Part shown: positions 1 to 6,000 of the stretch, piece by piece
Position numbering within the stretch: position 1 is the stretch's first letter
How the letters are laid out: every line of letters begins with the position of its first letter
Source of the DNA: Escherichia coli
GTDB taxonomy: Bacteria > Pseudomonadota > Gammaproteobacteria > Enterobacterales > Enterobacteriaceae
Assembly: GCF_030013595.1 (NCBI RefSeq)
Contig: NZ_CP122768.1
DNA length: 64,000 bases
Reading direction: 5' to 3' (one strand)
Position numbers: made by a program

Positions 1-3000
1 CCCTGAGCTACCTCTAATTAATCTACTGGCTGGCAGTAAATGTCAGCCAGTATTTCTTCGCACAATTAATAGTGATTTTTCATGGACATGGAAAAGATAA
101 GAATGAACATTTTTGCATATTTACTGGTACTTGTATTTTCCATGAGCATGAGCAGCAGCGCGTTTGCCAGCGTGGTAATGACCGGAACCCGTATTATTTT
201 CCCTGGTGACGCAAAGGAAAAAACCATCCAGTTGCGAAATACCAGCGATCAGCCCTATATCATTAATATCCATGTTGAGGATGAACGTGGTTCTGACAAG
301 AATGTACCGTTTATGCCAACCCCGCAGACATTTCGCATGGAAGCTGCCGCAGGTCAGGCGTTACGCCTGCTCTACACTGGTGATAATTTACCGCAGGATC
401 GCGAGTCTGTTTTCTGGTTTAGTTTCAGTCAACTACCTTATCTGAATAAGAACGATAAAAGTCAGAACCAGCTCATCCTGGCCCTGACTAATCGAGTCAA
501 AATTTTCTATCGTCCCAGCTCGATTATCGGTAAATCCAGTGACGCGCCAAAAAACCTGACTTACCAGGTAAAACAGAACCGCATTGAAGTGACGAATCCC
601 ACGGGCTATTACGTCGTGATTCGCGCCGCTGAACTGCTTAATAACGGTAAAAAAGTCCCCCTCGCGAATTCCGTCATGATTGCACCTCAAAGCACAACTG
701 AATGGACACTACGCTCTGGCATCAGCGTCGCTCCCGGTGCGCAGATTCATTTAGTGACCGTCAATGACTATGGCGTAAATGTCACGTCTGAGCATGCCTT
801 ATAAGCTCTTTCCCCTTTTTTGAGCGGTATCCTTTTTCACGCACGAGTATGTCGAGATGAATAAATCCGTTGTGTCAATTTCTGCGGCAATATTGGTTTT
901 ACTCTGCCAGCCGGTTATGGGGAAAGAAATCTCACCCGCTACACCGTCAGATGAAGACAACTACACCTTTGACCCGCAACTCTTTCGCGGCAGCAGATTT
1001 AGTCAGTCGTCATTGGCAAAACTGACAACTCGTGAGTCTGTTGCACCGGGCAATTATAAAATGGATATCTACACCAACAATAAGTTGTCAGGTAGTTGGA
1101 ATGTCACGTTTAAAGAAGCCGCTGATGGTCGCGTTCTGCCCTGCCTGACGCCTGAAGTCGCGGACGCGATAGGCCTCAAAACAGGGGAAGATAAGGGTGA
1201 AAAAGATCCGGTCTGTACCTTTGCTCAGGAACTCGCTCCCGGCATCACCAGCCAGACACAGTTGTCGCAACTGCGCCTTGACTTGTCGGTGCCTCAGAGT
1301 CAAATGATTAGTCGCCCTCGCGGCTATGTCCCCCCCAGCGAGCTGGATACCGGAGCATCGCTGGCGTTCATGAATTATATTGCCAACTATTACAACGTTG
1401 CCTATTCAGGGCAGAACGCTCATAGCCAGCGTTCGCTATGGGCATCATTTAATGGTGGCATCAACCTTGGTGCCTGGCAATATCGTCAGTTATCCAACAT
1501 GACCTGGGATAATGACAAAGGGAATCAGTGGAACAATATTCGTAGCTATTTGCAACGCCCGCTGCCCGCCATAAATAGCCAGTTAATGATGGGGCAGCTT
1601 ATCACCAGCGGAAGATTTTTCTCTGGACTCAGTTATCACGGCGTTAGTCTCGCGACCGATGAACGTATGCTGCCGGACTCCATGCGCGGCTATGCGCCGA
1701 CCATTCGCGGGGTGGCAGCAACAAACGCCAGAGTCTCGGTAATGCAAAACGGTCATGAAATTTATCAGACCACCGTGGCTCCAGGCCCTTTCGAGATAAA
1801 CGACCTATACCCCACCAGTTACAGCGGCGATCTGGATGTCACCGTTACGGAAGCAAATGGCGCAGTCAGTCGTTTCAGTGTCCCCTTTTCAGCCGTACCA
1901 GAATCGATGCGTCCAGGAACTTCCCGTTATAACGTGGAAGTAGGTAAAACGCAGGATAGCGGTGATGACTCGATGTTTGGTGACCTCACCTGGCAGCACG
2001 GGATGACTAATACACTGACATTTAACAGTGGCTCGCGTATCGCTGATGGCTACCAGGCGCTTATGCTTGGCGGAGTCTATGGCAGTACGCTGGGGGCATT
2101 TGGGGCAAACCTCACTTGGTCCCATGCGCGTGTTCCTGAAAGCGAAGCGCAGAGTGGTTGGATGTCGCAATTAACCTGGAGTAAAACTTTCCAGCCCACG
2201 TCAACCACCGTCTCCCTGGCAGGTTATCGATACTCTACCAGCGGCTATCGTGATCTGGCTGATGTGCTGGGAGAACGCCATGCTGCCAGCAATAAACAGT
2301 CATGGGACTCCAGCCAGTGGCGTCAACAGTCGCGCTTTGATCTTACGTTAAGTCAGAGCCTTGCGAATTACGGCAACCTGTTTGTGTCAGGTTCAACACA
2401 GAACTACCGTGGCGGCAAGAGCCGTGATACACAGCTTCAGCTAGGTTACAGCAATAGCTTTAGCCATGGCATCAGTATGAACCTTTCCGTCGGACGCCAA
2501 AGAATGGGCGGCTATAAAGACAATTCTGATGATATGCAGACGGTAACGTCCCTTTCATTCTCATTCCCACTTGGCGGCAATGGACCTCGTGTACCAAGTC
2601 TTAGCAACAGCTGGACCCATTCAACTGACGGTAGCTCGCAATTACAAAGCTCGCTAACCGGAATGCTTGATGAAGCACAGACCACCAACTACAGCCTGAA
2701 CGTCATGCGCGATCAACAATATAAGCAGACGACGCTTAGCGGAAACATGCAAAAACGTTTTTCACAAACTACCGTCGGATTGAACGCATCGAAGGGCCAG
2801 GATTACTGGCAGGCTTCCGGAAACGTACAAGGCGCGATGGCCGTACATGGCGGTGGCGTCACTTTTGGACCTTATCTGGGTGAAACGTTCGCCTTGGTCG
2901 AAGCAAAAGGCGCAGAAGGTGCAAAAGTCTATAACTCCAGTCAGCTGGAAATTAATGACAGTGGTTATGCGCTTATTCCGGCAGTAACGCCCTATCGCTA

Positions 3001-6000
3001 CAACCGTATATCTCTCGATCCACAAGGAATGGATGGCGATGCCGAGCTGGTCGACAGTGAAAAACAGGTAGCACCGGTTGCAGGTGCGGCGGTGAAAGTA
3101 GTCTTCCGTACCCGTCCCGGTAAAGCGCTGCTGATTAAATCCCGCATGGCAGATGGTTCGGAACTGCCAATGGGAGCCGATGTGCTGGATGAGAATAATA
3201 CGGTCGTCGGTATAGCCGGTCAGGGGGGACAAATTTACCTCCGCACAGAACAGACAAAAGGCCATTTGTCAGTTCGCTGGGGTGAAGGCGCTAACGATAG
3301 CTGCCAGTTGCCCTTCGATATCAGCGGGAAAGACAGCAATAGCCCTATCATCCGCCTGAATGAAACCTGTCAGTCTTGATACAGAGAAAACCCGATGTCT
3401 AAATCGACTTTTTTACACATTCTGATTAGCTCCATCATATTGGTGGCACTAATACAATCATCCGCCTGGGCCACTTGTTCTAATACACGTGTCGGACAAA
3501 CGGAGGACGGAAGATCGGCACTCATTGAGTTCGGAAAAATTAATATGACCGACACCTATTTTGCGCCAGTAGGCTCGCTACTCGCGACAACGGTCGTCCC
3601 TTCCACTAACTACACATCAGGTGGCGCGTCAGGAAGCTCCGTACTGTGGGAATGTGACGCAACAGATTTGCCAAACATCTATTTTCTGGTCGCTACCAAT
3701 GGCGATGACCGCGTGGGTGGCTTTCACAATGCAGGCGGGCCTGATGGTCTGAGTGATGTCTATGCCACCTGGTTTGCTTTTGTCGGTCTCAAGCAGACCA
3801 TGGCGGGTGTGACGCTTGGTCGTTACTGGAAGAAAGTGCCCATCACCAGTTATGCCACTCAGGGAACTAAAATCCAGATCCGTTTACAGGATATCCCTCC
3901 TCTTCATGCTGAACTTTATCGTATTAGTACTCTGCCTGATACCGCAGGCGCAACCAGTTACTGCGGTAATACCAATACTGATGGCGACGGTGTGGGGTAT
4001 GCTAAACCCTCCGGCACACCTTATAACTGCACTCAGCCTAATGCCTATATTCAGCTTTCCGGTACCAGTGGTATTCCATTTGCTCATGATGAAGTGGGAG
4101 AGGACAGTGCGGATCACTATGATTTTTGGGGTGTTGATAATGGTTTTGGTTACGGAATGCGATCGGCAAATCGACTCTACAACAATGCCACCTGCGTTGC
4201 CCGCAGCGCCACGCCGCTAGTATTGCTGCCGACAATTGCAGAAGCACAACTGAATGCGGGCATGGAAAGTACCGCTAATTTTAATGTCCGCGTCGAATGC
4301 AGTAACTCAGTTCAATCAGGGATTAGCGATACTCAGACAGCATTAGGAATCCAGGTGTCTGAAGGTGCATATACAGCAGCGCAAAAACTGGGGATTATCA
4401 ATAGCAACGGCGGCGTCAGCGCCCTGGTCTCTGATAATTATGACGCAGCAGAGATGGCAAAAGGCGTTGGGATCTATATTTCTAACAGTGCTCACCCCGA
4501 TACGGCGATGACGCTGGTTGGTCAACCAGGCATCGCGAAGTTAACCCCGGAGGAAATTCAGCGGGGTGGTATCCTGTATTTGAAGGGGCAACATTAGAAG
4601 GGGCGACTCACCCCGGATACTCCAGCTATAGTTACTCTTTTATCGCCCGGTTGAAGAAACTGCCAAATCAGACAGTCAGTGCGGGAAAAGTGCGGGCAAC
4701 GGCGTATATATTGGTGAAAATGCAATGAAATCCGTTTTGCTGCTCTTAACCGTCTTGTTCGTACAGTCAGTGGAAGCCGGCATCATGCCGGCTTCTTCAC
4801 GGATTATTTATCGCGATGGCGATCGGGAAAAGACACTGATGCTGGTCAATACCAATGACTACCCGGTACTGGTGCAAAGTTGGGTAGATAATGGTGAAGG
4901 CTCCCCAGAAGCTGCTTCTCCCCCCTTTGTGGTGCTGCCACCGGTTTTCCGCCTGGCAGCGAAACGAACCCAAGGGTTGCGGATTATCTATAATCATGAC
5001 CCACTTCCCCAGGATCGCGAATCTGCATTCTGGTTAAATCTTTATGAAATGCCGCCAGAAACTCCCCATCAAGATCCCACACATTTAACGCTGGCAATGA
5101 ATACGCAACTTAAAATCTTTTACAGGCCTAAATCTGTAACTATGACACCTGAAGAAGCTATGCGTAAAATAAGTTGGCATCTGGGTAACGACGGCAGCAG
5201 CAGCTATATTGAGCTTAATAACCCAACACCACTGAATATCTCTTTCACCTCCATTAGCATTGGGGCTACGAAGGTACAGCAAGAAAGCGATATGATGATA
5301 AAACCCTTCAGTCAACGACGGTACTGGTTAGCAAGTAATAACGTTAGTGGTGTGGTTGCCGCGACATATCTCGATGATAATGGTTCACAGATAAAGCAAC
5401 AATTAGCGCAATAATGCTCTGAGTGGTATGTAAACTCATCGCGATGGTTCAACGCTAACGAATAACCACTATACCTACCTGAAGTACCGGAAGTGGAGAA
5501 ATGACAAAATCTCTCCACTCCATTTTCCAGTCAAAACACCTCAACGCAGCCAAAAATCGTTAACGAATTGAATATCCACCATCAATAACTAATAGTTGTC
5601 CATTGACATAATCTGAAGCGGCACTGGCGAGGAACACCATTGCACCCATAAGATCCTGTGCCCTTCCCCAGCGTTGAGCTGGTATACGCCCTTTTATTAA
5701 CTCTTTTATTTTAGGGTTATTATAAATAATCGCTGTCATTTCACTCACATAATATCCTGGGGCGATACCATTGATCTGAATATTATATTCCGCAAAATCA
5801 TCGGCATACGCTTTGGTCAGCCCCGCTAAAGCATGTTTAGTCGCAGCATACCCTGGCGACCAACGTCCTCCATGAAATGACAATACTGAACACATATTAA
5901 TAATTTTCCCTTTTTTTGCGGGACAAATATATTCAATGCGGCCTGGCTCATATCGAATGCAGCATTCAGGTTGAGATTAATCATCGGATCCCAGTCGTTT

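What the first reader, a model, noticed from the sequence alone, without database searches (positions are those of the whole stretch)
1..5414. Chaperone-usher fimbrial operon with two chaperones and an unusually large adhesin-like subunit, truncated at window start
The order is chaperone (240 aa), usher (840 aa), 400-aa secreted adhesin-like protein, second chaperone (229 aa). The major pilin gene must lie upstream of position 82, outside the window. The 400-aa protein is longer than typical minor pilins and may be a two-domain tip adhesin with a lectin domain. The operon ends convergent with the frameshifted dehydrogenase and is near the ToxR-like regulator. Which of the many E. coli fimbrial loci this is cannot be decided from the window alone.
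Basis: partly seen in the sequence, partly recalled or inferred. Interest (0 to 1): 0.4.

Follow-up and report, generated by a model that had tools for sequence, protein, structure and literature searches.

The report
Known loc6 fimbrial operon, adhesin frameshifted
This is the already catalogued "loc6 / type 3-like" pilus operon of the E. coli O-island 47, correctly read by the first stage, except that its large tip-adhesin gene is broken here by a one-base deletion, so it is ordinary rather than new.

The parts
1..17 (+). 3' end of the major pilin gene (codons LSYL + stop); the rest lies outside the window
   Evidence: Window 1-17 reads ..CTGAGCTACCTCTAA. This equals the end of the 186-aa Fimbrial-domain protein WP_000493082.1 at L001 11457-12017.
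24..52 (+). Intercistronic hairpin after the major pilin gene (12-bp stem, 5-nt loop, then a weak U-rich tail). It is likely an attenuator or mRNA-stabilising stem-loop that sets the pilin:machinery ratio (inferred).
   Evidence: Terminator-like scan hit. RNA fold -20.5 kcal/mol, z = -6.75, 0 of 200 shuffles as good.
103..804 (+). Periplasmic chaperone 1 (233 aa; the ORF could also start at 82, giving 240 aa), FGS type
   Evidence: PapD_N 1e-35 and PapD_C. RefSeq start corresponds to 103. The columns equal to PapD/FimC Arg8 and Lys112 are invariant, and there is no long F1-G1 insertion relative to FimC. One residue differs from H1 (P97 vs S97).
857..3379 (+). Outer-membrane usher, 840 aa, intact
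   Evidence: PapC_N, Usher (509 bits) and PapC_C. Identical to WP_064226652.1 of H1. 832 of 841 aligned positions (stop included) are identical to Sakai ECs1278, which Wurpel Table S2 lists as the 'Type 3-like' gamma4 usher.
3395..4728 (+). Tip adhesin gene (444 aa when intact), here frameshifted. ORF 3395-4597 gives 385 authentic + 15 aberrant residues. The remaining 59 codons plus stop are intact in another frame at 4549-4728.
4545..4548 (+). C4 run, the site of the 1-bp deletion (C5 in intact alleles)
   Evidence: Alignment with H1, Sakai and O145. No complete RefSeq E. coli genome matches the window's 71-mer exactly. 366 match the C5 version at 95% identity or more, 6 of them at 99% or more.
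4725..5414 (+). Periplasmic chaperone 2 (229 aa), FGS type. Its start overlaps the stop of the intact adhesin gene by 4 nt.
   Evidence: PapD_N 5e-38 and PapD_C. Arg8/Lys112 equivalents are kept. Identical to H1. The adhesin/chaperone-2 overlap is -4 nt in 22 and -1 nt in 5 of 32 related loci.
5560..6350 (-). Neighbour, not part of the operon: SDR oxidoreductase gene (260 aa when intact) split by a T8-to-T7 deletion at 5911-5917
   Evidence: Orthologue of Sakai ECs1275.
7027..8344 (+). Neighbours: GrvA orthologue (ToxR-family wHTH, 7027-7848) and FidL-like partner (7853-8344)
   Evidence: Trans_reg_C domain. 97% identical to Sakai grvA ECs1274. The same pair flanks the cassette in Serratia L004 and Klebsiella oxytoca L016.

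Best explanation
Window 1-5414 is the E. coli loc6 / 'Type 3-like' chaperone-usher fimbrial operon of genomic island OI-47, in a non-O157 allele and cut at the window edge inside the major pilin gene. By analogy with type 1, P and type 3 pili (inferred), it should work as follows. Subunits are exported by Sec. A PapD-like chaperone captures each one by donating a strand to its incomplete Ig fold. The 840-aa usher then polymerises them by donor-strand exchange. The 444-aa protein enters first and sits at the tip, with its N-terminal beta-sandwich domain exposed as the binding module. The hairpin after the pilin gene probably keeps pilin in excess over the machinery. The second chaperone is most likely the adhesin's private chaperone (inferred). 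It is an old paralogue kept in every relative, and its start codon overlaps the adhesin stop codon, which suggests 1:1 co-translation. In this window a one-base deletion in a C5 run removes the last 59 residues of the adhesin. These are the last four strands of the modelled pilin domain, including the C-terminal strand with the family-invariant residues G431, T436, V441 and Q444. If the deletion is real, the adhesin cannot be held by a chaperone or joined to the fibre, so this strain would make no fimbriae or non-adhesive ones. The ligand and biological role are unknown.
Against: No experiment shows that loc6 makes a fibre or binds anything. A loc6 deletion in Sakai did not change binding to spinach roots. 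A 2017 paper calls its function unknown. The tip position and the adhesin-specific role of chaperone 2 are inferred; a distance-correlation test between the chaperones and their presumed clients gave nothing. The frameshift may be a sequencing error. Both 1-bp differences from the closest genome are deletions in homopolymers. The only other assembly with the same 400-aa ORF (Logan ERR12767400) also carries further homopolymer deletions in the usher and chaperone 2.
Confidence: 0.85

Rival explanations
1. The operon is intact in the living strain. The C5-to-C4 deletion in the adhesin gene and the T8-to-T7 deletion in the SDR gene would then be homopolymer errors of the sequencing or assembly.
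For: Both are single-base deletions in homopolymers. Downstream of the shift the remaining 59 codons and the overlap with chaperone 2 are untouched. No complete RefSeq genome matches the window's C4 71-mer exactly. The one Logan contig with the same ORF has two more homopolymer deletions, G6 to G5 in the usher and C6 to C5 in chaperone 2, which is typical of noisy long reads.
Against: Over window 7597-59000 there is not one 1-bp indel against the same relative, although the window holds 304 homopolymers of 5 or more bases. The same strain carries a real IS10 insertion in pgaB, so decay of surface and biofilm genes at this locus does occur. The Logan contig shares both deletions while differing by 4 SNPs, which fits a shared lineage. 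An O145 genome has the same C-run deletion on an 8%-divergent allele in an operon already cut by IS3.
Confidence: 0.42
2. The second chaperone is a functionally redundant paralogue, or serves the major pilin or regulates assembly. It would not be a chaperone dedicated to the large adhesin.
For: The two chaperones are equally distant from each other and from K-12 chaperones (about 30-36% identity). The distance-correlation test shows no specific co-evolution of chaperone 2 with the adhesin pilin domain (raw r 0.68 vs 0.60 for chaperone 1; partial r about 0). One Acinetobacter locus has an upstream tandem cassette, only partly held in the fetched locus, whose adhesin gene is not followed by a chaperone-2 gene (L031).
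Against: Both paralogues are retained as separate orthologous groups in all 32 loci across several bacterial orders. Chaperone 2 is always immediately after the adhesin gene and overlaps it in 27 of 32 loci. The literature reads the equivalent Stb addition as subunit-specific, citing the 987P precedent.
Confidence: 0.3
3. The 444-aa protein is not a receptor-binding tip adhesin. It would be a structural or initiator subunit whose conserved N-domain acts in assembly or in fibre-fibre contact.
For: Its N-domain is the most conserved part of the cassette across genera (60% mean identity, against 48% for the usher and 39-40% for the chaperones). That is unlike typical host-specific adhesins. No ligand is known.
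Against: The best structural matches of the N-domain are all receptor-binding domains of tip adhesins. There is no N-terminal extension before the N-domain, as in tip subunits. Allelic variation within E. coli concentrates in two N-domain patches, 27-41 and 184-247.
Confidence: 0.12

Closest known systems
   Same: This is the same operon at the same chromosomal place, with the same neighbours: pgaABCD, ycdT/dgcT, EAL vmpA, fidL-like, grvA, oxidoreductase, otpAB TPS and fatty-acid-synthase-like genes. The assembly proteins are 98-99% identical.
   Different: The window's allele belongs to a non-O157 group (99.9% to pig isolates; only 9 of 411 genomes are at 99% or more). The adhesin is only 93.5% identical, with changes clustered in the N-domain. 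Here the adhesin is frameshifted.
Salmonella enterica Stb fimbriae (stbABCDE)
   Same: Stb is in the gamma4 clade, has two chaperone genes and carries an extra distal subunit plus chaperone (Yue et al. 2012). The adhesin aligns to the NCBIfam StbD model over its whole length (25-444 vs 47-441, E 1.6e-33). The usher's best model is NF011784/PRK15248 (702 bits), which I infer from its neighbouring accession number to be StbC.
   Different: Scores are far below the equivalog cut-offs (116 vs 363; 702 vs 996). It is therefore a distant relative, not an orthologue. No Salmonella locus was recovered by the adhesin-pattern scan.
Pseudomonas aeruginosa CupA fimbriae (cupA1-A5, PA2133)
   Same: The gene set cupA1-cupA5 plus PA2133 is listed. 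The order pilin, chaperone, usher, large subunit, second chaperone, with c-di-GMP control, is from my own knowledge. A Pseudomonas citronellolis locus has the same five genes, an adhesin 59% identical, the 4-nt overlap, and response-regulator/EAL and sensor-kinase genes next to it.
Klebsiella type 3 fimbriae (mrkABCDF) and Acinetobacter Abp1/Abp2 pili
   Different: Sequence identity is only 12-14%. The N-domain is about 237 residues against about 165, with roughly 90 extra residues in loops, including the variable 178-247 stretch. From my own knowledge, mrk and abp have a single chaperone.
987P fimbriae of ETEC (FasB, FasC, FasE chaperones)
   Same: It is the precedent for several chaperones in one operon, each serving a particular subunit (cited; details from my own knowledge).
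   Different: It is a different clade and gene order. It is an analogy of logic only and was not tested here.

Membership tests
Classical chaperone-usher fimbrial operon (FGS type) | PapD-like periplasmic chaperone with both Ig-like domains and the subunit-anchoring Arg8/Lys112 pair | tested here: met
   PapD_N+PapD_C in both chaperones. R and K columns are invariant in the alignment with FimC, YadV, YehC and YraI, with no long F1-G1 loop.
Classical chaperone-usher fimbrial operon (FGS type) | Usher with N-terminal domain, barrel/plug and C-terminal domain, uninterrupted | tested here: met
   PapC_N 37-177, Usher 197-750 and PapC_C 759-822. Identical to the RefSeq protein of the closest genome.
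Classical chaperone-usher fimbrial operon (FGS type) | Pilin subunits with a complete Fimbrial (incomplete-Ig) domain ending in the C-terminal strand | tested here: inconclusive
   Met for the major pilin, which lies outside the window, and for the intact adhesin allele (profile 9-151). Not met by the window's adhesin ORF, which stops at profile position 96. Whether the frameshift is real is undecided.
E. coli loc6 / 'Type 3-like' fimbriae (gamma4, Wurpel 2013) | Placement of the usher in Nuccio-Baumler clade gamma4 by phylogeny | not tested
   Taken from Wurpel Table S2. My own pairwise comparison could not discriminate: 30-31% identity to FimD, YraJ, HtrE and YehB alike. Reference ushers of Stb, CupA and Mrk were not available.
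Salmonella Stb fimbriae | Equivalog-level match to StbB/StbC/StbD/StbE models | tested here: not met
   StbD model 116 bits against a cut-off of 363. Best usher model 702 against 996. StbB model 118 and 108 bits against 550.
Salmonella Stb fimbriae | Five-gene order pilin, chaperone, usher, large subunit, second chaperone | tested here: met
   Window plus upstream gene in H1. The Stb organisation is described.
Two-domain chaperone-usher tip adhesin | N-terminal receptor-binding beta-sandwich domain joined to a C-terminal pilin domain, with no N-terminal extension | tested here: met
Two-domain chaperone-usher tip adhesin | Demonstrated ligand and tip location | not testable with these tools
   No ligand is reported; a loc6 deletion had no effect on spinach root binding.
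Type 3 fimbriae (mrkABCDF) | mrk gene set with a single chaperone, a MrkD-size adhesin and MrkF | tested here: not met
   This operon has two chaperones, a 444-aa adhesin and no further subunit gene. Only the fold of the binding domain is shared, at 14% identity. The mrk gene set and the size of MrkD are from my own knowledge.
P. aeruginosa CupA fimbriae | Orthology to CupA1-A5 | not tested
   No PAO1 sequences were at hand. A Pseudomonas citronellolis cassette with 59% adhesin identity exists.

The most novel reading that the evidence does not exclude
The loc6/Stb/CupA-type cassette may be a distinct, ancient pilus subtype. Its large adhesin and a translationally coupled private chaperone would form one module. 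Its receptor-binding core, more conserved across gammaproteobacterial orders than the usher or the chaperones, would recognise a ubiquitous non-host target such as a bacterial or plant polysaccharide or an abiotic surface. It would then serve c-di-GMP-controlled biofilm formation rather than host-specific adhesion. The C5 run in the adhesin gene could be a recurrent off-switch.
Probability: 0.2. Interest if true: 0.45.

Novelty: already known. Interest (0 to 1): 0.2.

Why it matters
The finding itself only re-identifies a catalogued but functionally uncharacterised E. coli pilus operon. Three side results have modest value. First, the operon is not confined to the O157/phylogroup E lineage, as was suggested in 2017. 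It has a second allele group in pig, bird, water and ETEC isolates. Second, its 'outer membrane protein' (ECs1277) can now be described as a two-domain tip adhesin with a MrkD/Abp1D/F17-G-type binding domain. That gives a defined construct (residues 26-262) for ligand screening. Third, this strain's copy is probably non-functional, alongside a frameshifted SDR gene and an IS10-disrupted pgaB. This matters for anyone using the strain to study adhesion or biofilm.

Tried and rejected
1. Pairwise identity of the usher to the K-12 ushers FimD, YraJ, HtrE and YehB is 30-31% for all four, so it says nothing about the sub-clade.

2. I tested distance correlation ('mirror tree') across 26 cassettes, to see whether chaperone 2 co-evolves with the adhesin and chaperone 1 with the pilin. 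Raw correlations differ little, and partial correlations controlling for the usher are about 0, so the test is inconclusive.

3. A sequence search of the adhesin profile against PDB chains gave no hit at E up to 1. Only fold comparison worked.

4. Foldseek against AFDB50, intended to reach CupA4 and StbD, was not possible because the library is not installed.

5. The Nuccio and Baumler 2007 paper is not held.

6. Literature searches by WP accessions found nothing. The terms stbD/stbE mostly retrieve toxin-antitoxin papers.

7. The 361-aa adhesin variant of O145:H28 RM12581/RM13514 is truncated at the N-terminus and has an intact C-terminus. It does not share the window's frameshift.

8. I considered programmed frameshifting at the C run and rejected it. 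Intact alleles need no shift, and there is no evidence of a recoding signal.
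Full report
**Observation**

A split SDR gene lies on the opposite strand at 5560-6350, and a 273-aa gene at 7027-7848. Pfam gives PapD_N+PapD_C for both small proteins, PapC_N+Usher+PapC_C for the 840-aa protein, and a partial Fimbrial domain (residues 263-366, profile positions 9-96 of 151) in the 400-aa ORF. The feature is real and far beyond chance.

**Identity of the locus**

- Megablast of window 1-8500 against 5426 complete E. coli genomes finds the stretch once in each of 411 genomes. 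In 395 of them the match covers at least 80% of the query. Nine are at 99% identity or more and 392 are at 95-99%.
- The best match, a pig isolate at 99.9%, shows what lies upstream of the window. A 186-aa Fimbrial-domain pilin gene ends at window position 17. Before it come a 207-aa hypothetical gene, a two-partner secretion pair and a fatty-acid-synthase-like cluster. Downstream lie the SDR gene, a wHTH regulator, a small protein, an EAL protein, dgcT, pgaABCD, phoH and efeB.
- O157:H7 Sakai has the same arrangement: pgaABC, ycdT, ECs1272 (EAL), ECs1273 (FidL-like), grvA (ECs1274), ECs1275, then ECs1276-1280 (chaperone, 'outer membrane protein', usher, chaperone, major pilin), ECs1281, the TPS pair and the ACP/ketosynthase genes up to ycdU.
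- Counting the stop codon, the window proteins match Sakai's at 832/841 (usher), 230/234 and 226/230 (chaperones) and 186/187 (pilin) positions.
- Other papers call ECs1276-1280 'loc6' and place it in OI-47 / S-loop 71. One states that its function is unknown and that it seemed limited to phylogroup E.

The ToxR-like neighbour is the GrvA orthologue (97% identity).

- In the closest genome and in Sakai the adhesin gene is 1335 nt (444 aa), and its stop overlaps the chaperone-2 start.
- Base-by-base alignment shows only six differences in 8.5 kb. Two of them are 1-bp deletions in the window. One is in a C5 run (window C4 at 4545-4548) inside the adhesin gene. The other is in a T8 run (T7 at 5911-5917) inside the SDR gene.
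- The window ORF therefore carries 385 authentic residues plus 15 out-of-frame residues. The last 59 codons remain intact in another frame at 4549-4728.
- The lost part corresponds to Pfam Fimbrial profile positions 97-151. In the structure model it covers strands 392-394, 400-406, 409-422 and 437-443. It includes the family-invariant G431, T436, V441 and Q444.
- In chaperone-usher systems the C-terminal strand and carboxylate are what the chaperone's Arg8/Lys112 pair grips. That strand also flanks the groove that accepts the donor strand (established knowledge from PapD/FimC structures). A protein truncated in this way should be neither chaperoned nor polymerised (inference).
- The chaperones and the usher show no defect. 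The usher and chaperone 2 are identical to the RefSeq proteins of the closest genome. Chaperone 1 differs at one residue, where the window has the consensus Pro of the LPQDRES motif. Both chaperones keep the invariant Arg and Lys columns and lack a long F1-G1 loop, so they are FGS type.

**Is the frameshift real?**

Evidence for a real mutation:
- No other 1-bp indel separates the window from the same relative over positions 7597-59000. The window contains 304 homopolymers of 5 or more bases.
- The same strain has a genuine IS10 insertion in pgaB.
- A Logan assembly of run ERR12767400 carries the identical 400-aa ORF and also the SDR deletion, while differing by four SNPs.
- An O145 strain has the same C-run deletion on the 8%-divergent O157-type allele, in an operon already cut by IS3.

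Evidence for an artefact:
- Both events are homopolymer deletions.
- The downstream frame is pristine.
- No complete RefSeq genome matches the window's C4 71-mer exactly, whereas 366 match the C5 version.
- The Logan contig has two further homopolymer deletions, which looks like long-read noise.

I put the odds at about 58:42 in favour of a real mutation and cannot settle it here.

**The large protein**

- A profile of 62 homologues has no sequence match in the PDB.
- With that alignment, AlphaFold gives a confident model (pLDDT 91.9, pTM 0.82) with two domains.
- Foldseek ranks the full-length tip adhesins CupB6, LpfD and PapG first. It aligns FimF, FimA, FimG and PapE to the C-terminal half.

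The protein is thus a two-domain tip adhesin with a lectin-type beta-sandwich, enlarged by about 90 residues of loops.

**Relatives and the two chaperones**

- Homologues of the adhesin at 52-67% identity occur in Serratia, Klebsiella, Kosakonia, Pluralibacter, Erwinia, Proteus, Providencia, Arsenophonus, Aeromonas, Pseudomonas, Acinetobacter and Dyella.
- A scan of one genome per species recovered 32 loci. Nearly all have pilin, chaperone, usher, adhesin and chaperone in that order. A few are cut by contig ends, have a fragmented usher or lack a detectable pilin. The upstream chaperone always scores best against chaperone 1 and the downstream one against chaperone 2. The two chaperones are therefore old paralogues, not a recent duplication.
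- The adhesin stop overlaps the chaperone-2 start by 4 nt in 22 loci and by 1 nt in 5 more. The pilin-chaperone-1 gap is always tens of nucleotides. The same overlap is seen in Pseudomonas citronellolis.
- This pattern suggests translational coupling and a 1:1 adhesin-chaperone pair. That is my preferred but unproven reading. A distance-correlation test did not support or refute it.
- The literature interprets the equivalent extra subunit and chaperone of Salmonella Stb (gamma4) as specialisation toward subunit-specific chaperones, as in 987P.
- The adhesin aligns end to end with the NCBIfam StbD model (E 1.6e-33), but far below the equivalog threshold. The same holds for the best usher model. 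Stb is a distant relative, not an orthologue.
- The resemblance to P. aeruginosa cupA1-A5 rests on my own knowledge, on the gene list and on the Pseudomonas citronellolis cassette. It was not tested against PAO1 sequences.

**Two side results**

- Across 26 cassettes the adhesin N-domain is the most conserved component. Mean pairwise identity is 60% (63% for residues 26-177). The pilin domain has 54%, the major pilin 51.5%, the usher 48% and the chaperones 39-40%. This is unusual for a tip adhesin and hints at a conserved target.
- Within E. coli, the window-type and O157-type adhesin alleles differ at 8.2% of nucleotides, against 2-3.7% in the neighbouring genes. Of their 29 amino-acid differences, 27 lie in the N-domain, and 17 of those lie in 184-247. 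That stretch falls in the segment (178-247) that is also least conserved between genera.

**Other anatomy**

A 12-bp hairpin at 24-52 follows the pilin stop codon directly (-20.5 kcal/mol, z = -6.75). This is the usual position of the stem-loop that differentiates pilin from machinery expression in fimbrial operons (inference from pap and fim).

**Verdict**

The finding is a correct reading of an ordinary, already catalogued operon. The added value is its name, the detection of the adhesin frameshift, and a structural description of the adhesin. Novelty: already known. Interest: low.

Noticed in passing
window 15644-16972: An IS10 copy (1329 bp, 402-aa transposase ORF at 15751-16959, typical IS10 ends) is inserted in pgaB. 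It is flanked by a 9-bp target duplication, GGTCTGGTT, at 15635-15643 and 16973-16981. It is absent from the closest relative, so PNAG deacetylation and export is probably knocked out in this strain.
   Followed up: partly
window 5560-6350 (-), T7 run at 5911-5917: The SDR oxidoreductase gene (260 aa in relatives; Sakai ECs1275) is split into 174-aa and 111-aa ORFs by a T8-to-T7 deletion. The same deletion is present in Logan contig ERR12767400_981.
   Followed up: partly
window 37422-37513: A 66-bp tandem duplication relative to the closest genome lies inside a small KGG-repeat/con-10 type stress-protein gene. The ORF at 37391-37594 (-) carries two repeat units in its ~57-aa product; the relative has a 35-aa product.
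   Followed up: partly
L003 (NZ_CP035767.1, O145 RM12522-C8) 3017-6219: The same C5-to-C4 deletion in the adhesin gene occurs on the O157-type allele, which is 8% divergent from the window's. In that strain the usher is also cut by an IS3-family element. The C run may be a recurrent mutation or error site.
   Followed up: partly
L004 63-1400, L016 803-2100; window 7027-8344: A ToxR-like wHTH gene plus a FidL-like gene (the GrvA/FidL pair) lies next to the fimbrial cassette in Serratia sp. AKBS12 and Klebsiella oxytoca, as it does in E. coli. This hints that the pair regulates the fimbriae.
   Followed up: no
L007 1-1643 (-): A close homologue of the E. coli OI-47 TpsA protein (OtpA; 707 bits) lies beside the cassette in Kosakonia sacchari. 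The TPS-fimbria pairing is therefore not unique to E. coli.
   Followed up: no
L031 63-10200: Acinetobacter calcoaceticus JUb89 has two cassettes in tandem. Only the usher and adhesin genes of the first are held in the locus. That adhesin gene is followed directly by the second cassette's pilin gene, with no chaperone-2 gene between them.
   Followed up: no
L042 10037-17299; L011 9045-11309; window 8446-10056 (-): Genes with EAL domains lie beside the cassette in three lineages. Pseudomonas citronellolis has a response regulator with an EAL domain among hybrid sensor kinases. Leclercia and E. coli (a CSS-EAL protein, orthologue of Sakai ECs1272) each have one too. This suggests a recurring link with c-di-GMP control.
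   Followed up: no
L001 10791-11414 (upstream of the window): A 207-aa hypothetical protein (Sakai ECs1281) sits 42 nt upstream of the pilin gene on the same strand. It has no Pfam or NCBIfam match and could be an operon-specific regulator.
   Followed up: no
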